From positions 70,013-134,012 of IMG/VR virus record IMGVR_UViG_2934543808_000001: a stretch of 64,000 bases of DNA; one strand, written 5' to 3'. Of this stretch, positions 7,210-59,130 are shown piece after piece. Within the stretch, counting starts at the first letter, position 1, and every line of letters begins with the position of its first letter. The stretch comes from a virus (Duplodnaviria; Caudoviricetes). The position numbers and the translations under genes were made by a program. The notes beneath the pieces were generated by a model. It made no database searches. It had not been told where the DNA came from and was given only the letters and a program-made list of their open reading frames with translations.

Positions 7210-7223
7210 GCGCGCAAGCAGCA

Positions 7224-37197: not shown

Positions 37198-37234
37198 GGC
37201 GGGTTCCTCCTGGCGGACGTCTCGGGCGGTGCGC

Positions 37235-37267
37235 ACCGTGCCCCCGCGGAGGGGTTACCGTCCTGCG
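37235..37267 (-). promoter_or_regulatory. Late-promoter motif copy (protease)
   Basis: CGCAGGACGGTAA; CACGGT 19 nt after GAC. Confidence 0.5.
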
Positions 37268-38728: not shown

Positions 38729-41700
38729 CTACCGGGTGGCGAGCAGTCCAAGAAGGAAAGCCCGCAGGTCGTCGTCCTCGTACCACTGGCCGTCGAACAG
38801 CGTCGCGATGCCGAGCGGAACCAGGTTCCCGGTGTCGCCCTGACCGTTGCTGTTGCGGAACAGACGCGCGAGGAGCCTGTCCAGCGACGTGCGGCGCCGC
38901 GCGCCCACCCGCCCGCTGTGGGTCCGGGTGAAGTGGAACGCCTCCTGCGCGGCCAGCAGATCCGGGTAGTGCTGCTGAAGGTGCGCGAGCAGGGCGTGCG
39001 CAGCCGTACGGCGGCCGTCGTCCCCAAGGTCGGCGACGGTCGCGATCCGGCTGGCCGGGTCGTAGCCGCCGGCGTCGCCGCCGCGGGCCGTGAGGAACCG
39101 GGCCTCGGTCGGAGACAGCCAGTCCCGGGGCACGAACTGGGCGATGCCCGTCAGGGCGCGCACGGCGTCCGGGTCGCTGTCCGGGGTGGTCACCAGCGTG
39201 GCCGTGGTGCCCGGCCCCATCTCGCGGACCTCGGCGAGGGTGCCCCGTACGGCGTCGGGGAGCGCCGCGGCGTACGCCTGCTGAAGCCGGGCGGCTTCCT
39301 GCCGTGCGGACTGCGCCTCGACGCGGGCCGCCGCGACCTCCAGGTCCGCGCCGGGTGCGCCGCCGGCCGCCGCCGCTTCGAGGTCGCGCAGGCGGCGCTC
39401 GGCGGTGTCGGCGTAGTTCGCGGCGTGCCGGACGGTGCCGTGCGGGTCGTCGCCGAGTTCCGGCGCGGCGGCGCTCAGCCGGGCTACGACGTCGGTGTCC
39501 ACGTCCTGTCCGGCCGCGCGTACGGCCGCGAGGTGACGCAGGGCCTGCGGGCCGGGCCCGCCGTCCACGGAGCGGTCCATCGTCCAGCGCACGCCGTCCT
39601 GTACCTCCGGGAGCTGGCCAGCAGCCAGGGAGGACCGGCTGGTCGGCCGGTACCAGCGGGCGCGGCGGGAGACCTGACCGAACCGGCCCGGGGCGGGCAG
39701 GAGCCGCGCCCAGTGGGCGACGCGGTCGCCGAGCGGCAGCCCATCTGTGTGCTGCGGGAGGCGCCCCGCGGCGGCCAGGCGACGCAGGCGACGGGCCTCG
39801 GGCCACGACCGGATGCGCCGCATCAGGCCCTGACGGAACCGGGAGATACGTTCCCGCATCCGGCGCAGGTTCTCGCGACCGGCCCGCCACGCCTTCGCGA
39901 GGGCCTTCAGGAAGGCCGCGACCAGGGCGATGATCCTCCGCGCGATGGCGACGAGTCCGGCCACGATGTGCGGCAGGATGCCGGCGCGCTGCCCCTCGGG
40001 CAGCCGGGAGGCGATCCGCTGGGCGGTGGCGTTGCGGCTGCTGTCCATACGAGCGGCGAGCTGCTGCACGATCGCGGCGCGACGCTCCGGGGTGAGGAGT
40101 TCACCGCTGTCCGCGGCTGCCTGGAGGGCTTCGCCCACGGCGTCGTCGGCGTGCTGGGTGACGTCGTCGTTCACGCCTGCCTCCCCGTCGGTGTTGTCGC
40201 CCCCAGCCGCCCGGGTGCGCAGGGCCTCCGGGATGAGGCGCAGCAGGTCGGCCGCGCGGCTGGCGGTGTCCTCCTCCGACTCGCCGTCCAGCGGCTCCAG
40301 GTCGTCCAGCGTGCGCACCGCGGCGCGAACAGCGTCGGTGCGTGCGCGGGCCGCCTCCTTCCGAAGCGACTGCACCAGGTCGTCGCGCTCCTGGCCCTCG
40401 AACCCGGCGTCGGTGATCGCGGCCATCGCCCCGTTGCGAGCCCTGCGCATGCCCGCGCGCAGCGCCTCGGGGGTGAGCCGTTCAGCGATCTGCTGGCGGA
40501 GCTGGTGGATGCTGCCCGGCGTGGTCGTGCCGTCGAGGGCGCTGTCGATCACCGCCCGCACGACTGCGTCCGCGTAGTCGGCGCGGACCTTGCCCGCGTC
40601 CGGAGCCGGGTTCGGGTCGCGCTGCTCAGCGTCGTCGTCCGCGGCCGGTGCCTCCGGGTCGGGGAGCTGGTACAGCGGCTCGGAGGACGCCAGGGACCGC
40701 TTGAAGCGCATGCCGTCCCCGTCCTCGATCGTGAGGACCCGCACCCCGCCCGGCGCCTCCTGGATCTGCACGACGCGGTACGCGGTCATGGTGTCCGGGT
40801 CGAACTCGTCCGGCAGGGTGATCGTGTCCCCCTCGCCGACGGAGCCCACGGTGCCCGGCTCCGGCTGGTCGACGTCGTCGGGCTCGTTGCCCGCCGCGGC
40901 GTCCAGGTGGTCGGCAGCTCGCTGCGCCGTTCGACCCTCGGGGGTCGCCGAGTCGGCACCCTCGCGCAGCTCCTCGGCGAGCGCGGTCGCCTGCCCAGGG
41001 GTGAGCGGCAGGTCGTTGGCGACGCGAGCCGCGCCCTGCTGGGCGTCGGGGTCGCTGGCCGGCGCCTGCCCACGGTCGGTGATCGCGTCGCGCTCCTCGG
41101 GGGAGAGCTGCGGGTCCACGGTGGGCCCGGCGACCGGGTCGACGGCCGGGGCCGGCTCGTGGCTGGTGATCTCGCCGCCGCTGGCCGGAGCATCTTCCGG
41201 CCCCAGCTCGGGCGGGTTGCCATCGGCCCCCAGCGCCCGCTGCACCTCGCTGTCGCTCGCAGTCGAGACCTTCTCGGTCTCGCCGGTGGTGGTGTCCTCC
41301 AGGTCGAGGTGAGTCTGCTCGCCCTCCTCCTCCCGGCCGGTGACCCGGGCGGTGCGCGGGCCGTCAGGGGACTCGCGTACGAGGACGTCGCCCTCCTGCA
41401 CGTCTCCCGCAGGGGCGGGTTCGACGGAGGAGACCTTGTGGTCGTTGTCGCCGTCGGCGGTGTCGCCGATGACGCGCAGGTCAGCGATGGGCAGATCCCT
41501 CATACCGTCCGGGGTGGCGACGGTGGCGGTGTCCCCGTCCACCGACTCGACGGTGCCGAGCATGTTGCCGTCCCGGTCGCCGACGACGTTGCCGTCGCGC
41601 ACCAGGCGGCCGTCTGCGGTCCAGCCGGAGGGCCGACCCGCGCCGCCGTCGGTGACGTTGAGGGAGGTGGGCGAGTGGTTGTCGTCGGTGCGGTCGTCGC

Positions 41701-44700
41701 CGAACTGGACGCGGACGCTGTTGGCGCTTGCGCCGGTGACCACGCCTTCCTTGCCGTCGTCGTCGGTGACGAGCGAGCCGGGGAAGAGACCGTTCCCTCG
41801 GGCGTCCGTGGGCACGCTGTCCGCGATCCGGCCGGTCAGGACGTCGGAGTCCGCGCCGGTCTGCGGGGAGCCCTGGAACTGGTCGGCGTCGTCGCGGGTA
41901 GCGCGAGCCGCCGCGGCGTCCGGCATGACGTACACCGGACTGCCGGTGCGGGCGTCCGGGCTGTCGGCGACCAGGACGCGGTACATGTCCGTGGCGCGGC
42001 CCTTCTTGGTCACCGGGATCAGCTTCGGTCCGCCCACGACGTGACCGGCGAGCGTGCGGGCCTTGCCCTGCTTGGTGACGCCGTCGATCCGGACCAGGTC
42101 GCGGAGCTGGAGTTCGCTGACCTGGACCCACTCGGCGGGCCGGCCGCCGACCGGCTCCGGCGCGGCCGGAGGCTCCGGCGTCGCGTCAGGCGCGCCCGCT
42201 GGCGCGTCCTGGCGGCGTTCGTCGCCACCACCTTCCGCGCGCGCGGGACGGTCGGCCGCCGGGTCCGCAGGCGGCTGGACCGGGGTGGTGCGCGCGGCGG
42301 CGGGTTCCGTACGGCCCTCCGACCGCGGGGCGTCCGTACCGCTCTCGGGGGCGGAGGTGTCCGTCGCGGCCGGGGTGACGGCCGTGTCGTCCTGACGCTC
42401 GGCCTCGGGGGCGTTGCTGCTGGACGAGGAGTCGTCGGCCGCCGCAGTGCGGGGGCCTTCGCCGATCTGCCGCCCGTAGCGGTGCTGATCGAACGGCAGG
42501 GTCACGTCCTCCGCCTCGGCGAGACGCAGGGCGGTGCCGCCGTCCGCCGGGATGATGAACGTGTCGCCGTTCGCACCGTGGCGCGTGCCCTCGAACTGGT
42601 CCTTGGAGACGGTGACGCGGTACCCCTTGTACCGGACTCCGGACGCCTTGAAGGTGGCCTTCGTCGGCTCGCCGATGACGTAGCCGAGTCGGCGGCCGGT
42701 GTACCCGGCGTAGAAGCCGGTGATACGCCCGTCGAGTTCTACGACGTCGCCTTCGCGGATGTCGGAGATGGGCACGCGTACGGCGTTGTTCCTGCCGCCG
42801 TTCTCCAGCAGCTCCTCGATGAACTGGTGGGCGGCGCGGTTCTTGCTGGCGTCGTGGTGCTGGGCCCTCGGGTCCTCCGGGCGGAGCACGTCGAAGTCCT
42901 CGCGGATCTGGTCCGCCAGCCAGCCCGGTCCGAGGATGTACTTGTCCTTCAGGTTGGGCTTCTGGTGCTTGTAGTGCGTGGCGTCGAGCCAGCGCAGTTC
43001 GTCGTGCAGGTGCGCCAGGTCGTCGGCCACGTTCCCGCTGGGCGTCACGCCGCGGCCGAGTTCGTCCAGCAGGGCGCGCAGCGCGTAGTAGCGCTCCAGG
43101 TCGACCGGGTTGTCGGCCAGGGTCTCCAGCCCGCGGAAGGGCTTCTCCTTGCCGGGGAAGCCCAGTGACTGGGCCGTGTGCCTCATGGTCCATGCGAGGT
43201 CCGGGTGCACGACGCTCAGGTCCGGCTCGCCGCGCTCCTTGTCGCGCAGCACGAGGTGCGCGATGGCGGCCTCGCGGGTGGCGAACTTCGTCAGGTCGGA
43301 GGCGAACGGCGGCTCGCTCCACCACTCACCGTCCGAAGAGGACCCGCCCGAGGAGTGCAGGTGAGGGGCGAACAGGGTGCCGATCAGCCGGCCGTCTCGC
43401 CAGATCTGACCATCGTGGTCCAGGCGCAGGACGGGCGTCGGGTTGAAGCCCTCGGCGGCGAGCGCGCGCATCCGCTCGGGCGAGCCGAACAGGACCCGCT
43501 CGCCTTCCTCGCTGACGACTCCCTTGGGCCCGGTCTCGTACTGCTCCATCTCCTTGGCCGTCGGTACGCGGCGGCCGTCTACGGTGCCGCCGCGGCGTCC
43601 CGTGCCGTGGGTGGCGTTGAGGAGGTACTGCGAGTCCGCAGCTCCCTCCGGCGCATCCGCCGCTTCTCCCTGCGCAGAGTCAGCCGGGCTTCCCGCGTTC
43701 GAGGCTGCCGCGCCATCGGCCGGCTGCTGCCCGTCGGTCTGCGCGCCGGACGACTCGGAACGGCCCGCGTCCGATTCCGGGGTGCTGGTGTCGTCCTTAC
43801 CGTCCTGGCGGCGGAAGCCGGGGGCGGCGTCCATGACGCTCTGGCGCGCCTGGTCGATCGCGGCACCGATGTGGTTGCCGTTGGCGTCGCGCCACGCCCG
43901 GAGGGCCTGTGCGTCCAGTTCGGGTGCCGACCAGTCGATCGGGTTGCCGTTCTCGTCCCGAAGCTGCTCGTAGGCGTCGGCAAGTCGCACGGCGCCGTCG
44001 CGGCCACCGATCTGTTCGCCGAGGGCTTCCCAGCCGGCGAGGTGCATGCCGCTGGCCGCGTGGCCGAACTGCCAGGTGCGGCCGTCGTCGTCGGACCAGG
44101 TGATGAGCCCGCCGCCCGGAGAAAGCGTCAGGGTGTCGTTGTTCGCGAGGCGCCGCAGGTAGGCGGCGTGCTCCTGCTTGTCGGCCCCGGCCGGGGTCGG
44201 GTTGTTGCCCGAGCGGTAACGGTTCTTCAGGCCGTCGAGTCCGCCAGGCCCGCCGGTGTTCGGCGAGCGGTCGCGGTCGTCATCCTCCCGGCCGCGGTCG
44301 CGGTCACGGTCTCGGCCGGGCAGGTGCGGCAGGCCGCCGTTCGGGGCGCCGCCGTTGCGCTCGCCGCGCTCCTTGTCTCGGTCGCGGTCGCGGCGCCGGC
44401 GGCGGTCGCGGCGCTGCTCGGAGTCCGAGTCATCCGCCTCGTCTCCGTCCTCCGGGCCGTCACCGTCGGGGTCGTGGTCGTCGTCGTTGCCGGCGTCGGG
44501 GCTGGGCGTGCCGCCGTCGCCGCCGTTACCGCTCGCTTCGTCGGGTGCAGCACCATCACGGTCACCGCGCCGACGGCTGCGGCTCTCGCCTTCCCGCTGG
44601 TCGTCGTCCTGGTTCTGCTCCTCCTCCGAGTCCTGCTCGCGGTCCTCGGGCTCGCCGTCCTGGCGGGCGTCGTCGTCCTGCTCGTCGCGGCCAGTCGCCT

Positions 44701-53700: not shown

Positions 53701-56700
53701 CGGTGTCCTTCTGCGCCTCGACCTTGGCCGTGATCTTCGCTTCGAGCTTCTTGAGCCGGTTGCGGATCTCCTTGACCATGCGGGAGTCGGTCCGCTTGCC
53801 GGGGTTGGCCTCCTGGTCCTCCCGCTTCTGCCGCTTCAGGGCCTCTTCGAGCTGCTCCTTCTCCCGCTTGATGTATTCGAGCTGCACCTCCGGGCGCATG
53901 GGGATGGACTCGAAGGCGTTCTGGGTGAGGATCACCGCGTCGTAGTCGCCGGTGGCGACGCGGGCGATGAACTCCCGGCGCTTGCGTCCCTGGAGGTCGT
54001 CGCTGGACGCGGCGAGGATGCGGCCGTTGGACGCGGACTCGGGGTACAGCTCTGCGAACTCGTCGCGGAACTGGTTGAGCATGTGGTTCGGGACGACGAT
54101 GGCGGCCTTGTTGACCAGGCCGAGGCGCCGGAGCTCCATCACGCCCATGGTCATTTCGGCGGTCTTGCCGGCGCCGACCTCGTGGGCGAGGAGCACCGCG
54201 GGTTCGCTGACCATGCGCGCGACGGCGGCGTGCTGGTGGGCGTGCGGCTTGAACCACTCGGCCAGGCCCGGCATGGTGCGGCGCTGGCCGTCGTACGACC
54301 TCAGCGCCAAGTTGTTGTGCAGGTCGTTGTAGCGCTTCTTGACCTGCTCGGTGCGTTCCTGGGTGGCCCACAGCCAGTCCTGGAACTCCTCGCGCATCTC
54401 CTCGGCCTTGGTCTGGGCCGCGGCGGTGGCGTCCTCGTCGACCCAGGTCTTGCCGTCCTCATCGCGGTAGGTGACGCGAATCCGGCCGTTGGTCAGGATC
54501 GCCTCGGCGAGCTTGACCGCGTTGAAGTCCTCGGTGCCCCAGACCTTGCGGGCGGCCTGGCTGTTCTTCACGGCGTCGGGGGCGTCAACCCGCCACATCG
54601 AGCCGCCCTGGTAGCTGACGGTGACCGCGTCGGTGTTGAGCTTGTCCCGCAGGAACGCCTGGATCGGGCCACGGCCGAGCCAGGAGGCGCCCATGGGGGC
54701 GTCGATCTCGCCGGGGGAGATCTCCTCGGGGAGCACGTCTTCGAGGTGCTTGACGTTGATCTCGTACCGGGAGTCGTTCGCGGCGAGGGCCTGCGCCTGC
54801 TCCAGCTTCTCCCGCACGTTGCCGGACAGGTACTCGGCCGCCGGCACGAGGTTGCCCCGGTCGTGGGGCTCGAAGACCAGCGGGTACTCCTCGCCGGTCT
54901 CCGGGTCCTTGGAGCGGGCGGCGAGCAGCCGTTCCCGAGCCGTCTCCGGGCTGGCGCCCATCACGTCGGCGAGGGCGTCGATGTCGAGGGTGCCGCGCTG
55001 CTCCAGCACGATCGCCATCGCGTCCTCGGGACGGCTGGCCCGCTCAGCGATGGTGCGGTGCCGGGCCTGCCGCTTGGTGAAGATCGCGGCCGGCGTGCTG
55101 GTCTTCGTGTTCTCGTCGTACGAGTCCAGGGACAGGATCACGGCCATGGTCGGGTCCTTGGTCAGGAGTCCGCCCATGGGGGGTCGCTTGCGGAACGCCT
55201 TCTCGACCTGCTCGCCGGTCTCCGAGTCGGTGGTCTTGCGCTTCGACCACTCGAACCGGTTCACGGAGCCGAACTTGGCGTTGTACGTGTCGTAGCGGGA
55301 CTTCAGATCGGCGCGCAGCGTCTCGATCAGGGCCTCGTCGGCGTCCGGCCGGGACTCCTCCCGGACAAGGGCCTTCAGCGAGTCGCGGAGCCCGAGGAGC
55401 TGCTGGGCCTCCTCGATCTGCGTCTTCGGCACCTCGAAGGGGTGGACCATGCCGTCACGGACCTGAGTGAACGTCCCGTCCGATTCGAGCTGCACGTGCC
55501 CGTCGGGCCGGTCCGACTCCGCGGACAGCAGCTCGACCTTGCGGCGCTCGCCGGTGTCCGGCTTGTACGTGAGCCGGGCGTCCTTCGCGCGGCCGACGAC
55601 CCGCTTCAGGGTGTAGCCCAGCTCCTCGTTCAGGTCGCCGGCGACGTGCACGCGCAGCTCGCCCGGCCCGTACATGCCGTTGCCGACGTGCATGTCGCCG
55701 ATGACGTTGCGGGGGTGGTCCAGGAAGTACGGGTTGACGTGGACCTTGGGCGCTTCGTTGTCCTCCGCGTCCTGGCCGGGAAGGTCGTGGACCTGCACGG
55801 TGTGCACCCACGTCGGCGGGTCGTCCTGCTTGCGCTGCTCGGGCGGCTTCACCTCGCCCTTGCGGGTGCGGCCGGAGGTGAACTCCTTGTCCTTCTCCCG
55901 GCGCCGGAAGATGAGCAGGTCGGTGACGACGTCCGTGCCGGCCGTACGGCGGTGCGCTCCGGACGGCAGACGGATCGCGCCGACCAGGTCGGCCTTCCGC
56001 GCCATCTCCATGCGGGCGTCTTCGGAGCGCGGCGTGTCGCCGTCCATGGTGTAGCGGGAGGTGACGACGGCGACCAGGCCGCCGGGGCGGGTCAGGTCCA
56101 GCGACTTCAGGATGAAGTGGTTGTGGATGTTGTGGCCGCCCTTGTTGTGGCGCATGTCCACGACCTGGTAGTCGCCGAAGGGGACGTTGCCGACGGTCAT
56201 GTCGAACGTGCCGTTGGCGGCGCGGGTCTTCTCGAAGCCCTCGTTGCGGATGTTCGCGTGCGGGTAGAGGGCCTTGGCGATACCGGCGGTGATCGGGTCC
56301 AGCTCGACGCCGGTCATGTCCGCGTTCTCGGGCGCGTACCCGATGAAGTTGCCGGAGCCGCTGCCCGGCTCCAGGACGTTGCCGCCGTCGAAGCCCAGCT
56401 CCCGGACCGCCTTCCACACCTGCTGAGCGATGGCCGGGTCGGTGTAGTGGGCGTTGAGGGTGTTGTCCTGAGCGGCCTCGTACTCGGCGTCGCTGAGGAG
56501 TTCCCGGAGTCGTCGCTGAAGCGGCTCGAACTCGGGCTTCGGGGTGTCTACGAAGACCTGCGGCGTGGCGCCCCAGCCGGACCAGCGGGCCAGGGTCTCC
56601 TGCTCGGCGGCCGTGGCCGGCCGGTTCTCGTCCTGGAGGCGGCGCAGCACCTCGATGGCGGCGATGTTCGCCTTGACGCGGGCCAGGACGCCGCTGGGGA

Positions 56701-58843
56701 CGACGGGGCGGCCGTCCTCCGGCGGCTGGTACTGCGGGGCGGTCTGCTCCTGCTCGGGGGAGCCGAAGGTTACCCGGCTGCGATCTTCGGCAGACTCACC
56801 TTCGGCATCTCCTTCTCCTCCGTCCCGGGCTCCTTCTCCAGGCTGTACAGCTTCTCGTCCAGGGCCTTCTCCCTCGCCCGCAGCGTCGCCATGTGAATCA
56901 GCCCCATCGCGTCCCGGAAGTCCGCCCCCGGCTCCGGCTCCTCCCGGAAGTCGTCCCGGTACTCCGCGATCAGCTCCTCGATCTCCGCGCTCTCCTGCGC
57001 GAAGAACCTCTCCGGCGGCGTCGTCTCCGCCAGCGTCGCCAGCGCCTCCGGCCGGTACGTCTCCCAGAACGCCTTCACCAGCGCCTTGTACCCGCTCACT
57101 CTGCTCCTTCTGGTCGTCGCGCTGGCCGTCGGCCGGCTGCGGGGTCACATCTTCACCCGGCACGCCCGCAGTGGGGGTGTCGGGGGCGGTCTCGGGGTTT
57201 TGACGCTGCTCTTCGTTCGGTTCGTCGCGGCGGCGGCCGAGGCGGGCCGCGGCGCTGTCGGTGGCGCCGCGCTCGCGGTCGAACTGGCCGGCGAGCTGCC
57301 AGATGGCGCGGCCGGACCGCTGGTCGTCCTTGTCGCGGAACTCAATCAGCTCGGCGTTCAGGCGGGGGCCGCCCCAGTCGACGGTGCGGCCGTCCGCGTG
57401 GCGGAGGTTGCTCGCCAGGAACAGGGTGAACCGGTCGGCGGTGTCGCGGTCGCCGAAGTGGCCGTAGGTGTGGAGGCCGCGGTTGCCGAGGCTCGACAGG
57501 CCGCGGCCGGTGCCGGCGGCGCGCACCTCGTAGCGGTAGTCGTCGTCGCGGGTGGTGTCCTCCACGATGGCGAAGCCGCGGTGGTCGGCGAGGTGGAGCT
57601 TGTACTTCGGGTCGTTGGCGTACCGGCGCATCACGTCGCGCTGGCCTTCGGGGGTGTCGTCGCTGCCGCCGCGCTTCCAGAACTCGTGCAGCTCGGCATC
57701 GTTGCGCGGGCGGCCCCGCTCGTCGCCGAATTTCTGCGGGCCGACGTGCCCGACGGCGATGTTCGAGGCGGGGGCGCCGGAGCGGTCCGCGACCTGCTGG
57801 GCGGCCTGCGCGAGGGGACTCTTCGGCGGCGTCTGGGTCGGGGCGGCGGGCTTCGTGCGGGAGGTGGCGCCCTCACGCTTCTTGGCGGCCCGCTGGGCGA
57901 AGCGCTGCCGGGACTCGGCAGCCAGCCGGCCGGCCTTCTCCAGGCCGTCCGGGGTGTTGAGCCGGTCGAAGGACGCGGGGTCGTTCCAGTCGATGCGTTC
58001 GCCGTCGACCTCGAAGGACTCCATGTTGTTGGCGAAGTCGATCGCTTCGCCCTTGCGGTCGGAGATGATGAGGCGCACGCCGGTCTCGGTGTGCATGACG
58101 CCCCAGCCGGCCTGCTCACCGTTCTTCGTGCGCCACGTGGTGTGGCCGACGACGAAGTGGCCGTTGCGGGAGAGCTGGGGCTTGTCCAGCTTGTCGAGCA
58201 GTTCGGTCGTGAACTTGTTGTGGCTGTCCTGCGCCTTCTCGTCCTTGGTGAAGGCGCGGACCTTGCCGCTGGCCCAGTGGGCGCGGACGTCGTCCAGGGT
58301 CTTGAAGCGGCGGTTCGGGTCGCGGCGGGCACGCTTCGCGGCGGGCTTCGGCTCGGGCTCGTCGTCCGGCTCGTCGTCGTCCGGCTCCGGGCCCTGGCCG
58401 AGGTCTTCGCCGTCGATGTCCTCCCCGATGTCCTCGCCCTGGTCGTCCTGGTCGTGGGGGTCGTCGGAGGTGTCGCCCTGGTCGCCGGCGTCGTCGTCGT
58501 TCAGGCCGGTGCCGCGGCGGCCGTCGGAGAGGCGGCGCTCGTCCTCGTCGCGGACCTTCTTCTTGCTCTTGGTGGGGGCGGTGCCGTCCGGCCGGGCGAC
58601 CATCGTCAGGCGGGAGCCGTGAACGGTGGACTGCTGGTGCGTGGTCAGGTTCTCGACCAGCACGTTCCGGCCGCCGAGGGAGCGCACGACCCGGGCCAGG
58701 CCGCCGCCCCAGAGCCGCGCGATGCCGCCCGTCTCGATGAATCGGCCCTTGGAGTCACGCGGATGCAGATCGGGGTTCCAGGGGCGGCGAGCCTTGGCTT
58801 CAAGGCGAGCGGCGAGACGGTCAGCGGCGTTCGTGATCTGCAT
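38729..58843 (-). CDS. Giant 6,704-aa polyvalent protein: DarB-like N6-adenine MTase + SNF2 helicase, UvrD-like SF1 helicase, repeat domains
   Basis: MTase: VLEPGSGSGNF, GNVPF. SNF2: HEVGAGKT, VDEAH, ATATPISN, QRNGRIIRQGN. SF1: ALAGTGKS, DEAQD, VGDSNQAIYGFRGA, TAHKAKGLE, YVAVTRA. N-terminal WNPDLHPRDSKGRF. Start set from the promoter geometry. Confidence 0.88.
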   Translation of the reverse strand: MQITNAADRLAARLEAKARRPWNPDLHPRDSKGRFIETGGIARLWGGGLARVVRSLGGRNVLVENLTTHQQSTVHGSRLTMVARPDGTAPTKSKKKVRDEDERRLSDGRRGTGLNDDDAGDQGDTSDDPHDQDDQGEDIGEDIDGEDLGQGPEPDDDEPDDEPEPKPAAKRARRDPNRRFKTLDDVRAHWASGKVRAFTKDEKAQDSHNKFTTELLDKLDKPQLSRNGHFVVGHTTWRTKNGEQAGWGVMHTETGVRLIISDRKGEAIDFANNMESFEVDGERIDWNDPASFDRLNTPDGLEKAGRLAAESRQRFAQRAAKKREGATSRTKPAAPTQTPPKSPLAQAAQQVADRSGAPASNIAVGHVGPQKFGDERGRPRNDAELHEFWKRGGSDDTPEGQRDVMRRYANDPKYKLHLADHRGFAIVEDTTRDDDYRYEVRAAGTGRGLSSLGNRGLHTYGHFGDRDTADRFTLFLASNLRHADGRTVDWGGPRLNAELIEFRDKDDQRSGRAIWQLAGQFDRERGATDSAAARLGRRRDEPNEEQRQNPETAPDTPTAGVPGEDVTPQPADGQRDDQKEQSERVQGAGEGVLGDVPAGGAGDAGGDDAAGEVLRAGERGDRGADRGVPGRLPGGAGAGGGLPGRDGADSHGDAAGEGEGPGREAVQPGEGARDGGEGDAEGESAEDRSRVTFGSPEQEQTAPQYQPPEDGRPVVPSGVLARVKANIAAIEVLRRLQDENRPATAAEQETLARWSGWGATPQVFVDTPKPEFEPLQRRLRELLSDAEYEAAQDNTLNAHYTDPAIAQQVWKAVRELGFDGGNVLEPGSGSGNFIGYAPENADMTGVELDPITAGIAKALYPHANIRNEGFEKTRAANGTFDMTVGNVPFGDYQVVDMRHNKGGHNIHNHFILKSLDLTRPGGLVAVVTSRYTMDGDTPRSEDARMEMARKADLVGAIRLPSGAHRRTAGTDVVTDLLIFRRREKDKEFTSGRTRKGEVKPPEQRKQDDPPTWVHTVQVHDLPGQDAEDNEAPKVHVNPYFLDHPRNVIGDMHVGNGMYGPGELRVHVAGDLNEELGYTLKRVVGRAKDARLTYKPDTGERRKVELLSAESDRPDGHVQLESDGTFTQVRDGMVHPFEVPKTQIEEAQQLLGLRDSLKALVREESRPDADEALIETLRADLKSRYDTYNAKFGSVNRFEWSKRKTTDSETGEQVEKAFRKRPPMGGLLTKDPTMAVILSLDSYDENTKTSTPAAIFTKRQARHRTIAERASRPEDAMAIVLEQRGTLDIDALADVMGASPETARERLLAARSKDPETGEEYPLVFEPHDRGNLVPAAEYLSGNVREKLEQAQALAANDSRYEINVKHLEDVLPEEISPGEIDAPMGASWLGRGPIQAFLRDKLNTDAVTVSYQGGSMWRVDAPDAVKNSQAARKVWGTEDFNAVKLAEAILTNGRIRVTYRDEDGKTWVDEDATAAAQTKAEEMREEFQDWLWATQERTEQVKKRYNDLHNNLALRSYDGQRRTMPGLAEWFKPHAHQHAAVARMVSEPAVLLAHEVGAGKTAEMTMGVMELRRLGLVNKAAIVVPNHMLNQFRDEFAELYPESASNGRILAASSDDLQGRKRREFIARVATGDYDAVILTQNAFESIPMRPEVQLEYIKREKEQLEEALKRQKREDQEANPGKRTDSRMVKEIRNRLKKLEAKITAKVEAQKDTAGLYFEDTGIDYVVVDEAHHYKNLTTNSTLPGAAIEGSNRASDLDMKLEYLRKTTKSGRVVTFATATPISNSITEAHTMLRYLRPDLLDKAKVRNFDDFASTYGKVVNGTELAADGSGFREVSRFAAFRNMPELLRIWRTVADVKNSDDLAEYLDTPDVAGGKAVTVSVEPTEGLLAYMDQIAARARAVKRGDVEPTVDNMLKINSDGRKVSLDPRMVGIDEQGAKLPAAADNIARIYADTKDAVYPTSKNNPTPHETPGGLQIVFLDMGTPVDPGKSKKKKGKTEGPADMEELGQSKFPAYQELKDLLIERGVPAEKIRFIHEAKNDVEKARLFADARNGKISVLLGSTTKMGVGTNVQLRATALHHLDCPWRPADLEQRNGRIIRQGNFNPEVAIFQYVTEGSFDGFSWQTVARKAKFIRQIMKGNLTERTIEDIPDGVFNAEQVTAISTGNPYLLEQANVKVALGALTRKLKGHMRTIEGYKSTIHAAERLREKTNELTAQLRDVVARKKNTRGDDFNATIGTKDFTKRDEAAQALATAARAVLRQGTENPYKPGGHPEVVIGKVGNIEVTAKYRTTWSNAGRVHLVDIRMPDVPQSLFSYDEKDLKKESTLPITRIEDKLADVEKMIVRLESRLRQEERAAATARERVDRPFEQAAELEAAERRSKLIAAIIKEQGREVSSEDAAKDKRNRMEALEHQLREARLAAGEDAADVDDPAAEQDTDLLPRTPAAPSIGTDEKGRPRITWPDAEARKAAKERKKREKQQRAREERGETTLDPAQVRSDLDGLSEDAPPADNDQQQSEAQPDAPAPSEETTDSVDGDVALNPAQVRAELDDLRPEGGENSDETDETQPAEEEAPQPDDSGETDETEPGEEEAPQPDDEAAAESEQDAAAPESGAPEDESAAPEADQPQEEEPETTEEPEETEGAPAESAETDAPADSGTPSNASPRSRTSGTGGTREPGAPRAPRPADGRERPAPAARPQRQPEPETAPTDMTAEQLGDAIDEIEDQLSPLAESTDPLDLAMRRRLERRQWELEDEERRRWKPEPKYDDNGKLVEPSRGDTVQDRLGGYGLNDAEVQGLVTRVEDLPDAKEGGYSDEEWERISSEASAREDYPPTDEQNIIIEGAARRGLNMAVMALAGTGKSSTLKMLSHRMPGKKIVYLAFNRSVAAEAREAQARGEYAKNMLASTANAYAARVADRRLNDRLPSSKAGGFKKLSAQQIADRMRWYDTVKAGNRDLTPGGAATVAERMIREWAKSADAEMGPQHVRAKTDEERRDLFNAVKPLADRMWANLSDPEAGDPDRDLTMDFDYIVKQWALGGYKIDADTLFWDEAQDVNPVMEGVVRAALDQGVQVVAVGDSNQAIYGFRGASDALAKLPVDARATLTQSFRFGPAVADVGNRFLRLLGTRMRLKGFDRKNSRIEQLHPGEESMVIARTNAGVALAAVQALTAGRTVAVSGGVKALQEFVQAAHALAEGEDTDHAELARFNGMAFDDIVEEVKTDPDLQQLASLFNLLEKHGDDIDALLSSGSRPAATELVGDRVWVRLDWNDPNADGLRRWLGDGKNNGVGKLVYDPATRRYYYEPGKRSVPWKSKTRSGVHKIDNKLSLEEAQQRIDAHLAKLYPQDDSDDGNGRLVPEHEPHDVLVTTAHKAKGLESERVRIADDFKGPEDNDDGNIDWDTIPDDEALRVAYVAVTRATEVLDPGSLGWVFRAVNDDDPTQPPKGEYRRDFKLDDFQAGDQVDFDDEDGTPNIGTVSEIDPPMLTVVSTSDEPGVGGKRQEISPAQVRRRNGQARPLLPAATDEELDQAIAGGRYGSGGTTKLDAQRVRDDLANLNNNDDTNTPAPERNTDAPVPPAETTTPAAAPEQDLPAKDDQVMTPDGLGDVMAVHDGSVLVRGDSSTRVWPLKDVTRPDGTPFGGDRSGEDTKARKNADDIAQASTPEGLELSTGYRLRDLDVEAGHGTIVDADGNTVGWVRARIGDNGRRYWWGQNADGGAPADMQWHEELPNQAGAAPVRAASIVRDGLDFLRQKYTGGTDENGKPEQATRTPVTPDRAITEMTLTPAQVRELSKLTLSGNYDDGTPIDTLPWDPGHRRYSPYSAQAGALAAAAREAAAQQDQSTPEGRRNRKVLLGAASKMEFQQYDSARKAATIPAPGETDHYAQPYKPRAEEPETGTPEAPAAPDVPAAEPFATDGDWRAAMVPVDAAELQVRRAAGRTWANDDTPAGVNLLGRAVLDALAAQEDNDHDEAERYLVAARDHAAGLLATLEDNERQEMEEPLRRFLDVTDTHLARHRATVRRRRAEDQQREEIEEAAGAQIREAIKRSTAPEEPTDDGVDRSEVEGIDQVNEGDYVRVETQDSAGNAVVREGYLLAPPKKITATRDGQSIKAWRLHVGEQGEEPSDGNGVSLLADEKVERLTAPETDQPTVGWKGPDETRETVGERGGKTVEIGEIHVIPAERRFQADEVRRAVYLDGKRIGSLLYNDNKAHFTGGESWRADHTLHGAVGEPWYRSSDFDNAAHAAALIVAESDSEPVLSFPRDVGETARAEPIRRWAGIWAQPQPAGVRNVYLDRAIAHNREGWTASADPWSVMQWISTMADVEPLAQYDENTRRSLEEAPLEGRQFLAGLAEDLRASVSKMGDELRADLRPILMDHIATRAGRKKAAELRNQLVEERAQKVQAAVREQIARARAGAAGHGLSEQQAEDFVVSVVGGDNPDQKSYGIRAQFPEAMRPLNAAVSDSGAYWAAFAGWATQEDSSNWAGMHWANGRRESIGAPMAPFADARTGTGELKIGEAELPKGMRWARGSELRKGDIFHTVKHPRRGTTDGFDGMETPNYVVHTHRGGVEGAVRSVSIDADHGQDRVGPDEWVVLVEKPEPNVRKRATNRARTDINIGWDVPVDDETYELGGPERVKALVARAEVTADDGDKPGLDREWTVRVDGVVIGRIDNTNKDKVLEYVSISPDGERRVWHGKDLATAGLVVAHDKATGRDEQDDDARQDGEPEDREQDSEEEQNQDDDQREGESRSRRRGDRDGAAPDEASGNGGDGGTPSPDAGNDDDHDPDGDGPEDGDEADDSDSEQRRDRRRRRDRDRDKERGERNGGAPNGGLPHLPGRDRDRDRGREDDDRDRSPNTGGPGGLDGLKNRYRSGNNPTPAGADKQEHAAYLRRLANNDTLTLSPGGGLITWSDDDGRTWQFGHAASGMHLAGWEALGEQIGGRDGAVRLADAYEQLRDENGNPIDWSAPELDAQALRAWRDANGNHIGAAIDQARQSVMDAAPGFRRQDGKDDTSTPESDAGRSESSGAQTDGQQPADGAAASNAGSPADSAQGEAADAPEGAADSQYLLNATHGTGRRGGTVDGRRVPTAKEMEQYETGPKGVVSEEGERVLFGSPERMRALAAEGFNPTPVLRLDHDGQIWRDGRLIGTLFAPHLHSSGGSSSDGEWWSEPPFASDLTKFATREAAIAHLVLRDKERGEPDLSVVHPDLAWTMRHTAQSLGFPGKEKPFRGLETLADNPVDLERYYALRALLDELGRGVTPSGNVADDLAHLHDELRWLDATHYKHQKPNLKDKYILGPGWLADQIREDFDVLRPEDPRAQHHDASKNRAAHQFIEELLENGGRNNAVRVPISDIREGDVVELDGRITGFYAGYTGRRLGYVIGEPTKATFKASGVRYKGYRVTVSKDQFEGTRHGANGDTFIIPADGGTALRLAEAEDVTLPFDQHRYGRQIGEGPRTAAADDSSSSSNAPEAERQDDTAVTPAATDTSAPESGTDAPRSEGRTEPAAARTTPVQPPADPAADRPARAEGGGDERRQDAPAGAPDATPEPPAAPEPVGGRPAEWVQVSELQLRDLVRIDGVTKQGKARTLAGHVVGGPKLIPVTKKGRATDMYRVLVADSPDARTGSPVYVMPDAAAARATRDDADQFQGSPQTGADSDVLTGRIADSVPTDARGNGLFPGSLVTDDDGKEGVVTGASANSVRVQFGDDRTDDNHSPTSLNVTDGGAGRPSGWTADGRLVRDGNVVGDRDGNMLGTVESVDGDTATVATPDGMRDLPIADLRVIGDTADGDNDHKVSSVEPAPAGDVQEGDVLVRESPDGPRTARVTGREEEGEQTHLDLEDTTTGETEKVSTASDSEVQRALGADGNPPELGPEDAPASGGEITSHEPAPAVDPVAGPTVDPQLSPEERDAITDRGQAPASDPDAQQGAARVANDLPLTPGQATALAEELREGADSATPEGRTAQRAADHLDAAAGNEPDDVDQPEPGTVGSVGEGDTITLPDEFDPDTMTAYRVVQIQEAPGGVRVLTIEDGDGMRFKRSLASSEPLYQLPDPEAPAADDDAEQRDPNPAPDAGKVRADYADAVVRAVIDSALDGTTTPGSIHQLRQQIAERLTPEALRAGMRRARNGAMAAITDAGFEGQERDDLVQSLRKEAARARTDAVRAAVRTLDDLEPLDGESEEDTASRAADLLRLIPEALRTRAAGGDNTDGEAGVNDDVTQHADDAVGEALQAAADSGELLTPERRAAIVQQLAARMDSSRNATAQRIASRLPEGQRAGILPHIVAGLVAIARRIIALVAAFLKALAKAWRAGRENLRRMRERISRFRQGLMRRIRSWPEARRLRRLAAAGRLPQHTDGLPLGDRVAHWARLLPAPGRFGQVSRRARWYRPTSRSSLAAGQLPEVQDGVRWTMDRSVDGGPGPQALRHLAAVRAAGQDVDTDVVARLSAAAPELGDDPHGTVRHAANYADTAERRLRDLEAAAAGGAPGADLEVAAARVEAQSARQEAARLQQAYAAALPDAVRGTLAEVREMGPGTTATLVTTPDSDPDAVRALTGIAQFVPRDWLSPTEARFLTARGGDAGGYDPASRIATVADLGDDGRRTAAHALLAHLQQHYPDLLAAQEAFHFTRTHSGRVGARRRTSLDRLLARLFRNSNGQGDTGNLVPLGIATLFDGQWYEDDDLRAFLLGLLATR
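56770..57099 (-). CDS. TnpV-like small protein nested out of frame inside the giant gene
   Basis: AAGGAG RBS 4 nt before the GTG; near-total GC3 in this frame; W..YRP..LA.L..PERFF...G.D......L..A.LRAREKAL pattern. Confidence 0.7.
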   Translation of the reverse strand: MSGYKALVKAFWETYRPEALATLAETTPPERFFAQESAEIEELIAEYRDDFREEPEPGADFRDAMGLIHMATLRAREKALDEKLYSLEKEPGTEEKEMPKVSLPKIAAG

Positions 58844-58850
58844 GCGGCGG

Positions 58851-58883
58851 ACCATGCACAACCGAAGTGGTTAGCGTCGCGTC
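58851..58883 (-). promoter_or_regulatory. Late-promoter motif copy (leaderless giant gene)
   Basis: GACGCGACGCTAA; CATGGT 19 nt after GAC and 7 nt before ATG 58843. Confidence 0.55.
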
Positions 58884-58917: not shown

Positions 58918-59130
58918 CTACATCGTCTCGGTGAGGATGTGCAGCAGGAACCAGCCGCTGAAGCCGAGCCAGCCAACGGTGAACACGGCCCGGCCGGTCT
59001 TCGAACTGCGGGTGCGGAAGAGCGCCCGGGTGTTCTCGCTGAGGGTGTCGCCCTCCTTCTTGTTGATCAGCGCCCAGGTCTCGAACAGGGCGAAGAGGGC
59101 GGTCCACAGGGCCCAGATGATCCAGCTCAC
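58918..59130 (-). CDS. Small two-TM membrane protein (70 aa)
   Basis: GTG 59130 overlaps the portal TGA; AAGGAG RBS; MSWIIWALWTALFALFETWALINKKEGDTLSENTR...WFLLHI. Confidence 0.7.
   Translation of the reverse strand: MSWIIWALWTALFALFETWALINKKEGDTLSENTRALFRTRSSKTGRAVFTVGWLGFSGWFLLHILTETM

What the first reader, a model, noticed from the sequence alone, without database searches (positions are those of the whole stretch)
38729..58843. 20-kb gene for a 6,704-aa polyvalent protein (MTase + SNF2 + UvrD) inside the head operon
Seen: one uninterrupted ORF between portal-MuF and the prohead protease, with motifs for an N6-adenine MTase (~56700-55700), an SNF2 ATPase (~54260-52430) and a second SF1/UvrD-like helicase (~50330-48560), plus over 3,000 aa of unassigned repeat domains. 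Known: phage P1 DarB is a capsid-packaged, co-injected MTase-helicase antirestriction protein, and polyvalent proteins occur next to MuF. Inference: this is a packaged, probably processed polyprotein delivering several DNA-protecting activities on infection. Two helicase superfamilies in one chain at this size is unusual.
Basis: partly seen in the sequence, partly recalled or inferred. Interest (0 to 1): 0.9.

Follow-up and report, generated by a model that had tools for sequence, protein, structure and literature searches.

The report
Giant DarB-like polyvalent phage protein
A 20-kb gene in the head-gene cluster of a Streptomyces phage-plasmid encodes one 731-kDa multi-enzyme protein of a known kind, probably packed in the capsid and injected with the DNA to protect it.

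Summary
Window 38729-58861 (-) is one open frame of 6,710 codons (6,704 from the ATG at 58843) with coding-type GC3 nearly throughout. It lies between a portal-MuF fusion and a prohead protease-2H fusion plus an HK97 capsid gene, in a complete 134-kb record.

It has a DarB-like LPD36-methylase-SNF2 module, an SF1 (UvrD/FBH1-like) helicase, and about 4,000 residues with no family match.

It is a known kind, a polyvalent protein (Iyer 2017). That paper already reports SNF2 with UvrD in giant actinomycete proteins of up to 12,242 aa. Streptomyces phage Gilgamesh gp48 (4,624 aa) and a RefSeq plasmid gene (5,247 aa) occupy the same slot. This scan noted similar genes on other DNA (e1-6219773, e1-6250175).

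New here:
- The family has a conserved N-terminal module and a 1,100-aa C-terminal module around swappable cargo.
- One relative fuses the N-module to portal-MuF.
- The C-end is a zincin-like domain whose HExxH is lost in this clade.
- The putative protease motif E-x-K-S/A is rare in the giant, which argues against cutting into many pieces.
- A conserved 109-aa gene is nested in the +1 frame ahead of the methylase.

Packaging and injection are inferred, not shown.

The parts
38729..58861 (-). Giant ORF, 6,710 codons from TTG 58861 (ATG alternatives at 58855 and 58843), stop at 38729-38731. Product 731 kDa, pI 4.98.
58574..58804 (-). N-module, aa 20-96: LEAK-ARRPWNPDLHPRDSKGRFIETGG... followed by a short beta-rich part. 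Conserved in nearly all family members. Proposed portal-MuF docking or capsid-targeting module. Holds the giant's only E-x-K-A site (aa 21-24).
   Evidence: Present in 23 of 32 large relatives by BLAST. 30 invariant columns in 18 sequences. Fused to the C-terminus of a portal-MuF protein in P0110. The HPRD..GRF motif is unique in the six-frame genome.
57302..58264 (-). Two unassigned N-proximal globular segments (aa 200-300 and 372-520), separated by charged, low-hydrophobicity linkers. Present in only part of the family.
56768..57121 (-). Gly/Asp/Ala-rich low-complexity leader of the DarB-like cassette (aa 581-698). GC3 of the giant frame falls to 0.40-0.54 here.
56770..57099 (-). Nested gene X: 109 aa, +1 frame relative to the giant, GTG start behind AAGGAG, own stop. 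Acidic (pI 4.7) four-helix protein of unknown function.
   Evidence: GC1/2/3 0.62/0.49/0.95. RBS. Conserved 78/75/34/31% in four relatives, always at +1. Found in 15 of 401 Streptomyces genomes, 12 of them directly before a DarB-like methylase. AF2 pLDDT 92.2.
52049..57274 (-). DarB-like module (PHROG 10089 match, aa 530-2271): LPD36-like helical domain with GWGA (aa 762), N6-adenine-type methylase (VLEPGSGSGNF; NVPF at aa 892), SNF2 ATPase (DEAH at aa 1736; Helicase_C aa 2027-2109).
   Evidence: LPD36, GxGU and NPP(Y/F) as defined in PMC5512222.
51170..51370 (-). Two copies of the motif (V/T)xL(D/N)PxQVRxxLDxL (aa 2498-2515 and 2547-2564) inside a 288-aa acidic linker (aa 2449-2736).
48566..50341 (-). 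SF1 helicase (aa 2841-3432), UvrD/FBH1-like. AGTGKSS P-loop, DEAQD at aa 3060, VAVTRA.
   Evidence: Pfam UvrD-helicase 52.8 bits, PHROG 1967. Nearest solved relative F-box DNA helicase 1, E 1.2e-22. Motifs.
48158..48211 (-). Third copy of the tail-like motif (aa 3551-3568, TKLDAQRVRDDLANL).
42116..48565 (-). Unassigned middle (aa 3433-5582): about ten globular segments separated by acidic or proline-rich linkers. Variable between relatives.
   Evidence: No hit in Pfam, PHROGs, NCBIfam, PDB sequences or the Atlas. Linkers. Patchy presence.
38732..42115 (-). Conserved C-module (aa 5583-6710), always C-terminal in the family: beta-barrels, helical bundle, zincin-like end.
39884..39997 (-). Long helix (aa 6289-6326) holding the only strongly hydrophobic stretch of the protein, from aa 6293. 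Candidate membrane-inserting helix.
   Evidence: Only Kyte-Doolittle window above 1.5. Helix 284-321 of the model.
38732..39733 (-). Alpha/beta end domain (aa 6377-6710) with an inserted helical hairpin. HALLAH (aa 6622-6627) stands where distant homologues have HExxH, so this is a degenerate zincin-like domain.
   Evidence: Model pLDDT about 90. Alignment columns. HExxH in the last 220 aa of 44 of 88 family representatives.
59127..61565 (-). Portal protein (aa 42-647) fused to a MuF-like head-morphogenesis domain (aa 668-810).
58918..59130 (-). 70-aa protein with two hydrophobic stretches. Its GTG start overlaps the portal stop (GTGA). Counterpart of Gilgamesh gp47 'membrane protein'.
   Evidence: phrog_3555
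35236..37236 (-). Prohead protease (S78, aa 28-192) + 2H phosphoesterase (aa 194-394) + C-terminal part ending in the tail VRLDADEVKALLASLTL (35239-35289). Eight E-x-K-S/A sites, most at the domain borders.
33757..35130 (-). HK97-fold major capsid protein. E-x-K-S sites at aa 118 and 151, ahead of the capsid-fold match.

Best explanation
The gene encodes a single, very large polyvalent protein of a temperate Streptomyces phage-plasmid. It is built as a fixed chassis carrying exchangeable cargo.

Chassis:
- A roughly 80-residue N-terminal module.
- A roughly 1,100-residue C-terminal module made of beta-barrels, a helical bundle with one hydrophobic helix, and a catalytically degenerate zincin-like end domain.

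Cargo in this phage:
- A DarB-type LPD36-N6-adenine-methylase-SNF2 translocase.
- A UvrD/FBH1-like SF1 helicase.
- About ten small unassigned domains strung on long acidic linkers.

Proposed mechanism (inferred):
1. The protein is made late, together with the head proteins.
2. Its N-module docks on the MuF domain fused to the portal, and it is enclosed in the prohead.
3. It escapes the prohead protease because it lacks that enzyme's E-x-K-S/A sites, except possibly one N-terminal trimming site.
4. It leaves through the tail with, or just ahead of, the DNA.
5. In the new cell the methylase-translocase and the helicase act in cis on the incoming DNA to blunt restriction, as shown for P1 DarB.

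A separate 109-aa acidic protein, X, is encoded in the +1 frame inside the leader of the methylase cassette. It is probably a partner or regulator of that enzyme.

Shown: the ORF, its domains, the chassis-and-cargo pattern, the gene context, the fusion in one relative, the motif statistics, and the conservation of X.
Inferred: packaging, docking, intactness, injection, anti-restriction activity, and expression of X.
For: Real gene. Coding GC3 over 20 kb. Uninterrupted ORFs of 4,624-7,243 codons in the same slot in Gilgamesh and four IMG/VR relatives. RefSeq annotates a 5,247-aa CDS there on the circular plasmid NZ_CP107821.1. A contig of a second isolate's run covers it at about 5% divergence.

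Polyvalent and DarB-like. PHROG 10089 at 1,304 bits. 33-36% identity over about 1,500 aa to genes annotated 'DarB-like antirestriction' in Ochrobactrum, Erwinia, Vibrio and Ralstonia phages. SNF2, Helicase_C and UvrD above Pfam cut-offs. GWGA, NVPF, DEAH and DEAQ motifs present.

Head context. The order portal-MuF, small membrane protein, giant gene, protease-2H, capsid protein is kept in Gilgamesh and the plasmid. Major tail protein, tape measure and tail-fibre proteins lie downstream.

Chassis and cargo. Among 32 large relatives, the N-module and the C-module are present in nearly all. The DarB module is in about 19 and the SF1 helicase in about 10. The C-module profile finds 88 cluster representatives in 1.84 billion; the module ends within about 15 residues of the C-terminus in nearly all listed hits, with one clear exception (P0033).

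Docking. P0110 (924 aa) is a portal-MuF protein, 49% identical to ours over 820 aa, with the N-module (62% identity) at its C-terminus. P0033 carries a MuF domain and the C-module in one chain. Two of 28 members of alignment A2 match Phage_Mu_F.

Protease motif. E-x-K-S/A occurs 8 times in the protease fusion (0.26 expected) and 2 times in the capsid protein, at conserved places in 6 of 6 relatives. The giant has 1 (3.4 expected). Thirteen giants together have 18 against 36.6 expected.

Tail motif. The conserved C-terminal tail of the protease (7 of 7 relatives) resembles a motif found 3 times in the giant's linkers and nowhere else in the six-frame genome.

Background from PMC5512222 (passages). 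DarB is a P1 head component that protects DNA in cis. About 35% of polyvalent proteins are phage-encoded and are predicted to be packaged. The region of N4 vRNAP that contains its MPTase domain is needed for encapsidation.
Against: - No virion proteomics or expression data exist for this phage or its relatives. No RNA holder was listed.
- The protein has no MuF domain of its own.
- The Rosetta-stone fusion is a single protein, from one of the 21 N-module hits.
- The tail-like motif is found in only 11 of 33 family members. It is absent from Gilgamesh gp48 and G003. The pattern was written after the copies had been seen.
- The motif depletion is about two-fold. It is counted on related, non-independent sequences, and the cleavage specificity itself is inferred.
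- A 731-kDa chain would have to unfold to pass through a tail.
- Iyer et al. place the SNF2+UvrD giants in contexts like conjugative transfer, and this element is also a plasmid, so action outside the virion is possible.
- The zincin reading rests on one motif. Pfam, a profile search of PDB sequences and fold searches of the whole model gave no peptidase match.
Confidence: 0.6

Rival explanations
1. The protein is real but is not packaged. It is made late and works in the producing cell or during plasmid life, for example by methylating progeny or plasmid DNA, remodelling replication intermediates, or helping cell-to-cell DNA transfer of the phage-plasmid in mycelium.
For: Close relatives are circular plasmids or phage-sized contigs of Streptomyces isolates. 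Iyer et al. found SNF2+UvrD giants in contexts like conjugative transfer. Cassettes of X plus a DarB-like methylase occur in 12 of 401 Streptomyces genomes, some without the phage N-module.
Against: The position between portal-MuF and the protease is strict in all seven contexts examined: this window, Gilgamesh, the four IMG/VR records G001, G002, G003 and G005, and the plasmid. The N-module is fused to a portal in P0110. The protease tail motif and the protease-site depletion point to the prohead interior.
Confidence: 0.2
2. The giant chain is a polyprotein that is cut into separate enzymes, either by the prohead protease in the capsid or by another protease after injection.
For: Thirteen long, low-hydrophobicity linkers separate the domains. 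P1 DdrB/DarA are processed, and polyvalent proteins often carry a peptidase for self-processing (PMC5512222). One E-x-K-A site lies at aa 21-24.
Against: The giant has 1 E-x-K-S/A site against 3.4 expected, and none in a linker. Thirteen giants have 18 against 36.6 expected. There is no HExxH anywhere in the chain, and the zincin-like end has lost it. N4 vRNAP is packaged unprocessed.
Confidence: 0.12
3. The long ORF is not one translation unit. In 71% GC DNA, frames stay open by chance, so separate genes (the N-part, X, the DarB cassette and others) merely look fused.
For: Over aa 581-698 the frame cannot acquire a stop, because its first codon position is the GC-only third position of gene X. 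X and the methylase cassette have their own ribosome-binding sites in stand-alone loci. The ARC14 copy of the N-part is annotated as a separate 434-aa protein.
Against: GC3 is 0.87-0.97 in the one frame on both sides of X, so a ribosome that starts at the N-terminus has no stop to end at. Continuity is kept in all five relatives despite deep divergence and cargo swaps. The tail of the ARC14 protein looks like a frameshifted read.
Confidence: 0.06

Closest known systems
Phage P1 DarB (defence against restriction)
   Same: Methylase fused to an SF2/SNF2-type ATPase. The family model 'DarB-like antirestriction' (PHROG 10089) matches aa 530-2271 at 1,304 bits. DarB is a head component that protects injected DNA in cis (PMC5512222).
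   Different: The DarB-like part is about a quarter of this chain. It is embedded between a phage-specific N-module and a 1,100-aa C-module, with a second helicase. Packaging is untested. No DarA/Hdf partners were sought.
Polyvalent proteins of phages and conjugative elements (Iyer et al. 2017), including S. viridifaciens plasmid protein OJH72069.1 (12,242 aa)
   Same: Many unrelated domains in one chain. The LPD36-methylase-SNF2 triad. UvrD-like SF1 helicase together with SNF2 in actinomycetes. Late or packaging gene context. A zincin-like domain as a recurrent element.
   Different: The SNF2+UvrD type was described in contexts like conjugative transfer; here it sits in a head module. MuF is on the portal, not in the chain. 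The zincin-like end has lost HExxH. I could not align with OJH72069.1 because it was not retrievable.
Streptomyces phage Gilgamesh gp48 (MN234216, 4,624 aa, 'hypothetical protein')
   Same: Same slot after a portal-MuF fusion (53% identical portal). The N-terminus is 40% identical and the C-terminal 1,140 aa 43-45% identical.
   Different: No DarB module, no SF1 helicase and no Pfam hit at all. The cargo differs entirely.
Phage N4 virion RNA polymerase
   Same: A giant (about 3,500 aa) capsid-packaged, injected protein, packaged unprocessed. The region holding its zincin-like MPTase domain is needed for encapsidation (PMC5512222).
   Different: No RNA polymerase domain was found here. No sequence or fold similarity was shown. 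This is an analogy only.
T4 internal proteins with an N-terminal capsid-targeting sequence (recalled, not from a call)
   Same: A short N-terminal leader that ends at a prohead-protease site would fit the single LEAK|A site at aa 21-24.
   Different: No homology. Cleavage and targeting are untested. The residue after the Lys varies in relatives.

Membership tests
Polyvalent proteins (Iyer et al. 2017) | One polypeptide, often over 2,000 aa, that combines several unrelated enzymatic or binding domains | tested here: met
   6,710 aa with methylase, SNF2 and SF1 helicase plus unassigned domains.
Polyvalent proteins (Iyer et al. 2017) | Encoded beside a portal-terminase packaging system or a conjugative transfer system | tested here: met
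   Portal-MuF directly upstream; protease and capsid protein downstream; tail genes further on. The terminase was not identified in the window.
Polyvalent proteins (Iyer et al. 2017) | LPD36 (four helices, GxGU motif) - adenine methylase - SWI2/SNF2 module | tested here: met
   GWGA at aa 762 ahead of the methylase motifs, then SNF2. Definition read. LPD36 itself was not matched with a profile.
Polyvalent proteins (Iyer et al. 2017) | MuF or zincin-like MPTase hub domain in the chain | tested here: inconclusive
   No MuF in the chain; it sits on the neighbouring portal. The C-end aligns with homologues bearing HExxH but reads HALLAH here. No Pfam peptidase family reached significance.
P1 DarB family | N6-adenine methylase with an NPP(Y/F)-type motif fused to an SF2 helicase-like ATPase | tested here: met
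   PHROG 10089 at 1,304 bits. NVPF at aa 892 as a variant of NPP(Y/F). DEAH and Helicase_C present.
P1 DarB family | Packaged in the virion head and protects incoming DNA from type I restriction in cis | not testable with these tools
   Needs virion proteomics and plating tests.
SWI2/SNF2 ATPases | SNF2 N-lobe and Helicase_C lobe with Walker A, DExH and motif VI | tested here: met
   SNF2-rel_dom 33.6 bits (cut-off 24.9) and Helicase_C 34.4 bits (cut-off 23.5). GAGKT, DEAH and QRNGRIIRQG read.
UvrD/Rep/PcrA-type SF1 helicases | UvrD N- and C-terminal domains with P-loop, DEAQD and motif VI | tested here: met
   UvrD-helicase 52.8 bits (cut-off 23). UvrD_C 24.3 bits, just under its 25.6 cut-off. 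Aligned with FBH1 at E 1.2e-22, with GTGKS, DEAQD and VAVTRA.
Zincin metallopeptidases | HExxH zinc-binding and catalytic motif | tested here: not met
   No HExxH in the 6,710 aa. HALLAH stands at the homologous columns. 44 of 88 homologues keep HExxH.
TnpV (first-reader label for nested gene X) | Match to the Pfam TnpV family model | tested here: inconclusive
   hmmscan of X at E up to 1 listed only DUF3135 (E 0.31). My own impression of a similar sequence pattern is recalled, not tested.

The most novel reading that the evidence does not exclude
The DarB-type anti-restriction cassette of Streptomyces mobile elements is a dual-coding unit. A conserved 109-aa acidic four-helix protein (X) is translated from the +1 frame inside the low-complexity leader of the methylase-translocase. 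In this phage lineage the same leader also serves as the in-frame splice joint that welds the cassette into a capsid-delivered 731-kDa chain. That chain would be anchored by its N-module to portal-MuF, kept whole by avoiding prohead-protease sites, and ended by a dead zincin domain re-used for encapsidation or ejection. X would be the producer-cell partner (inhibitor, chaperone or DNA mimic) of the injected enzyme.
Probability: 0.3. Interest if true: 0.7.

Novelty: new variant of a known kind. Interest (0 to 1): 0.5.

Why it matters
Packaged polyvalent proteins are thought to decide whether incoming phage DNA survives its first minutes, yet only a few have been studied, such as P1 DarB and N4 vRNAP.

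This family offers a clean natural experiment. The same N- and C-terminal chassis carries different cargo in related Streptomyces phage-plasmids, and one relative (Gilgamesh) is in culture.

The analysis yields concrete, testable handles:
- an 80-residue candidate docking module;
- a candidate prohead-protease site rule (E-x-K-S/A) and its avoidance in the giant;
- a dead zincin end domain;
- a nested gene tied to the methylase cassette.

If confirmed, these would show how a protein of 700 kDa is loaded into a capsid and delivered from it, and how new anti-defence cargo is plugged in.

Tried and rejected
Searches that found nothing
- Megablast of 10 kb against isolated phages: no match.
- PDB sequence searches of aa 1-720, 3430-5000, 5000-6710 and the DarB module: nothing credible.
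- ESM Atlas on aa 3430-5000: no usable hit.
- Pfam at E up to 1 on the dark parts: only chance-level rows.
- Pfam on nine shorter homologues of the C-module: no hit.

Fold searches
- C-module model (705 aa, pLDDT 82) by Foldseek against PDB and BFVD and by VIA wide: only generic helical hairpins and SH3/KOW-like barrels for residues 8-53. There was no peptidase match, but the model is multi-domain, so this says little.
- Profile of alignment A2 against PDB sequences: no peptidase.
- tblastn of X against phages: no match.

Repeats
- The whole-protein self-BLAST printed no rows because of my own filter, so it was uninformative. I replaced it with the chunked run.
- A profile search for repeated beta-barrels found only 2 copies, so I do not claim a repeat array.

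Frame comparison for X
- Amino-acid identity in the two frames over X is not informative, because low complexity inflates identity in the giant frame. I used the distribution of differences over codon positions instead.
- Those differences are uniform over the three positions in the X stretch: 10/9/8, 12/18/16, 16/15/11 and 9/10/11. In the flanks the third position dominates. This fits dual constraint, but the counts are small.

Literature and expression
- Searches for 'Gilgamesh' with 'Streptomyces phage' (0 papers) and for DarB/virion/polyvalent/mass spectrometry (225 papers held at least 4 of the 5 terms; none of the 15 listed bore on this family apart from Iyer et al. 2017) gave no virion data.
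- So 'no proteomics in print' rests on these two searches of the held library only. Supplements were closed; the files of Iyer et al. may list this architecture.
- No RNA holder was listed by the look-up of sequencing runs.
- The contig tables of run X2 show small indels in low-complexity parts that I could not turn into a frame check.

Rejected ideas
- A programmed frameshift joining X to the methylase: there is no slippery site at the junction, and the stand-alone cassettes have their own start upstream of X.
- The tail-like motif as a universal packaging signal: only 11 of 33 family members carry it.


Full report
**What is there**

The window is the last 64 kb of a 134,012-bp virus record that is classed as complete and has short terminal repeats; 95 bases are identical at the two ends. 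On the minus strand, 38729-58861 is a single open frame of 6,710 codons from a TTG. ATGs at 58855 and 58843 are equally possible starts, and none has a clear Shine-Dalgarno.

The DNA is about 71% G+C, so long antisense ORFs abound and openness alone means little. The frame, however, has GC3 of 0.87-0.97 in 32 of 33 blocks of 200 codons. The product is 731 kDa, pI 4.98, with two cysteines, one strongly hydrophobic stretch, and 13 long low-hydrophobicity, mostly acidic linkers.

**Context**

Upstream lies a portal protein with a MuF-like domain fused to its C-terminus (59127-61565). A 70-aa protein with two hydrophobic stretches follows, its start overlapping the portal stop (58918-59130).

Downstream are:
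- a 205-aa acidic ORF;
- a prohead S78 protease fused to a 2H phosphoesterase (35236-37236);
- an HK97-type capsid protein (33757-35130);
- further on, a major tail protein, a tail assembly chaperone, a 1,342-aa tape measure, minor tail proteins and a 1,312-aa tail-fibre-like protein.

**Recognisable domains**

| Part | Residues | Evidence |
|---|---|---|
| DarB-like module | 530-2271 | PHROG 10089 'DarB-like antirestriction', 1,304 bits |
| SNF2-rel_dom, Helicase_C | 1542-1813, 2027-2109 | Both above Pfam cut-offs |
| Methylase | 822-954 | Only weak Pfam hits |
| SF1 helicase | 2841-3432 | Pfam UvrD-helicase 52.8 bits, PHROG 1967 |

tblastn gives 33-36% identity over about 1,500 residues to genes annotated as DarB-like or DNA methylase in phages of Ochrobactrum, Erwinia, Vibrio, Pseudomonas and Ralstonia.

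Read directly from the sequence:
- a GWGA motif in a helical region ahead of the methylase, matching the GxGU mark of LPD36 as defined by Iyer et al.;
- VLEPGSGSGNF and NVPF in the methylase;
- DEAH in the SNF2 part.

The nearest solved relative of the SF1 helicase is F-box DNA helicase 1 (E 1.2e-22), with GTGKS, DEAQD and VAVTRA aligned. The remaining roughly 4,000 residues match nothing in Pfam, PHROGs, NCBIfam, PDB sequences or the Atlas.

**Relatives, and the chassis-and-cargo pattern**

The closest isolated phage is Streptomyces phage Gilgamesh (129 kb, host S. lividans). Its portal-MuF is 53% identical and is followed, after a small membrane protein, by gp48, a 4,624-aa 'hypothetical protein'. 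gp48 shares only the N-terminus (40%) and the last 1,140 residues (43-45%) with our protein, and has no Pfam hit.

Five IMG/VR loci hold the C-module. The ORFs of four records were completed, at 5,644, 5,917, 7,058 and 7,243 codons stop to stop. Each is uninterrupted and lies right after the portal.

Segment maps show modular exchange:
- G001 and G002 have the DarB module but no SF1 helicase.
- G003 has a divergent methylase-SNF2 and the helicase.
- G005 has both.

A profile of the last 705 residues, searched against 1.84 billion cluster representatives, found 88 proteins, 31 of them below 1e-30. The match ends within about 15 residues of the C-terminus in nearly all listed hits; P0033 is a clear exception (match ends at 2,451 of 2,835 aa).

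In a presence-absence table of 32 large relatives:
- the N-terminal 87 residues and the C-terminal roughly 1,100 residues are nearly universal;
- the DarB module is present in about 19;
- the helicase is present in about 10.

NCBI names for members are 'UvrD-helicase domain-containing protein' from Streptomyces and Kitasatospora, on contigs of 111-132 kb. A complete RefSeq plasmid, NZ_CP107821.1 (circular, 132,597 bp), carries the same head module with a 5,247-aa 'DEAD/DEAH box helicase family protein'. The element is therefore a phage-plasmid, as earlier notes of this scan also said.

**The N-module**

Residues 20-96 are strongly conserved, with 30 invariant columns among 18 sequences, including W28, N29, H33-P-R-D-S37, G39-R-F41 and R90-P-D-G93. 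The HPRD..GRF motif occurs once in the six-frame translation of the genome.

A search for longer proteins holding this module found 21. One, P0110 (924 aa, named 'phage portal protein', Actinacidiphila), is a portal-MuF protein 49% identical to ours over 820 residues, with the N-module (62% identical) attached at residues 830-911.

This natural fusion is the best evidence I have that the module works at the portal-MuF complex. It is a single case.

**The C-module**

An AlphaFold2 model built from 28 sequences (mean pLDDT 82) shows:
- a small beta-barrel;
- a long helical bundle that includes the hydrophobic helix (giant aa 6289-6326);
- an alpha/beta end domain (pLDDT about 90) with an inserted helical hairpin.

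Fold searches of this multi-domain model gave nothing specific.

The alignment is informative. Where our clade reads H-A-L-L-A-H (aa 6622-6627), distant homologues read HExxH followed by a Glu three residues on. Of the 88 family representatives, 44 have HExxH in their last 220 residues. The order three strands, helix bearing the motif, second helix fits a zincin core.

No Pfam peptidase family is hit significantly, and a profile search of PDB sequences found none. I therefore call it a candidate zincin-like domain that has lost its catalytic motif here.

One homologue (P0033, 2,835 aa) has a MuF domain at its N-terminus, and 2 of 28 alignment members match Phage_Mu_F. Iyer et al. note that the region of N4 vRNAP that holds its zincin-like domain is needed for encapsidation, although the protein is not processed.

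**Is it processed?**

- The protease-2H fusion has 8 (0.26 expected from shuffles). Three lie between the protease and the 2H domain, four between the 2H domain and the C-terminal part, and one in the tail.
- The capsid protein has 2, ahead of the capsid-fold match.
- The sites are kept at the same places in 6 of 6 relatives, including Gilgamesh.

This is a strong candidate for the maturation cleavage motif, although that is inferred.

The giant has one such site (3.4 expected), LEAK|A at aa 20-24 inside the N-module, where E21 and K23 are nearly invariant or invariant. Thirteen giants together have 18 against 36.6 expected, and four of those 18 are this N-terminal site. The sequences are related, so this is suggestive only.

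There is no HExxH in the chain. I read this as evidence against cutting into many pieces. It is compatible with removal of a short N-terminal leader.

**A shared tail motif**

The protease fusion ends in ...VRLDADEVKALLASLTL, a tail conserved in 7 of 7 relatives. A similar motif, (V/T)xL(D/N)PxQVRxxLDxL, occurs three times in the giant's acidic linkers (aa 2498, 2547, 3551) and nowhere else in the six-frame genome; shuffles give 0.0015 per sequence.

It is present in 11 of 33 family members and absent from Gilgamesh gp48 and G003. The pattern was written after the copies had been seen. It may be an auxiliary capsid-interior contact but cannot be the general signal.

**The nested gene**

Between aa 581 and 680 the giant frame's GC3 drops to 0.40-0.54, while its first position reaches 0.96-1.0. 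The +1 frame there has the normal signature (0.62/0.49/0.95). It encodes a non-repetitive 109-aa acidic protein, X (56770-57099), that starts with GTG five bases behind AAGGAG.

Conservation of X:
- 78, 75, 34 and 31% identity in G002, G001, G005 and G003, always in the +1 frame.
- Found in 15 of 401 sampled Streptomyces genomes, in 12 of them directly ahead of a DarB-like methylase.
- In three of these loci the methylase ORF opens only just upstream of X, with a candidate start behind a good ribosome-binding site about 30-50 bases before X. X therefore lies nested in the leader of the cassette even where nothing is fused upstream.

Against close relatives, nucleotide differences in the X stretch are spread evenly over the three codon positions, unlike the flanks.

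X folds with mean pLDDT 92.2 from 18 sequences, as four helices with no convincing fold match. Pfam finds no family, so the 'TnpV-like' label is untested. Five homologues are annotated as separate 109-112-aa proteins.

Two consequences follow. The giant ORF is an in-frame fusion made through the cassette's own low-complexity leader. Its openness over those 120 codons is automatic, so continuity there rests on the flanking frames and on the relatives.

**Comparison with what is known**

Iyer et al. 2017 (PMC5512222; I read passages, not the whole text or the supplements) defined polyvalent proteins. According to those passages:
- the LPD36-methylase-SNF2 module, with DarB as archetype, is the third most common element;
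- about 35% of polyvalent proteins are phage-encoded and likely packaged;
- in a few actinomycetes a UvrD-like helicase co-occurs with SNF2 in gigantic proteins (12,242 aa in a S. viridifaciens plasmid), in contexts like conjugative transfer.

Neither the size nor the two helicases are therefore unprecedented. This scan also met similar genes on other DNA.

What differs here:
- the head-module location of the SNF2+UvrD type;
- MuF on the portal rather than in the chain;
- the defined N- and C-modules;
- the degenerate zincin end;
- the nested gene.

**Verdict**

I rate it a new variant of a known kind, with interest 0.5.

Noticed in passing
window 56770-57099 (-): 109-aa gene X nested in the +1 frame of the giant ORF, with its own AAGGAG-GTG start. 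It is conserved ahead of DarB-like methylases in 12 of 401 Streptomyces genomes and folds confidently (pLDDT 92) into four helices. Function unknown.
   Followed up: yes
window 35236-37236 (-): Prohead protease fused to a 2H/LigT-type phosphoesterase. Eight E-x-K-S/A sites (0.26 expected), most of them bracketing the domains. A duplicated VETKSAAQIVLEAKS stretch. A conserved C-terminal tail VRLDADEVKALLASLTL. The 2H enzyme may be released inside the capsid.
   Followed up: partly
window 33757-35130 (-): The capsid protein has conserved E-x-K-S sites at aa 118 (PEVKS-LGD) and aa 151 (EGKS-IFS) in all relatives examined. These are candidate delta-domain cleavage points.
   Followed up: partly
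window 58918-59130 (-): 70-aa protein with two hydrophobic stretches, translationally coupled to the portal (GTGA overlap). Matches PHROG 3555. Its counterpart in Gilgamesh (gp47) is annotated as a membrane protein. An odd component between the portal and the packaged cargo.
   Followed up: partly
window 32168-33607 (-) and 29498-30133 (-): An exonuclease-family gene (PHROG 284) and a poly-gamma-glutamate hydrolase-like gene (PHROG 4175) lie between the capsid and tail genes.
   Followed up: no
L033 (NZ_CP107821.1) locus 5464-7313: The related circular plasmid carries QueD-, QueE- and FolE-like genes (7-deazaguanine pathway) upstream of the virion module. This suggests DNA hypermodification as a second anti-restriction layer. 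I did not check this window's genome for them.
   Followed up: no
P0095 / P0091 (Streptomyces sp. ARC14, neighbouring locus tags): A chromosomal copy in which the N-part is annotated as a 434-aa protein with a Ser/Pro/Thr/Arg-rich tail typical of a frameshifted read, next to a separately annotated X. Probably a decaying integrated copy.
   Followed up: no
window 37305-37922 (-): 205-aa very acidic ORF between the giant gene and the protease, with no family match. Its acidic stretch resembles the giant's linker at aa 2551-2678 (E 2e-8, compositional).
   Followed up: no
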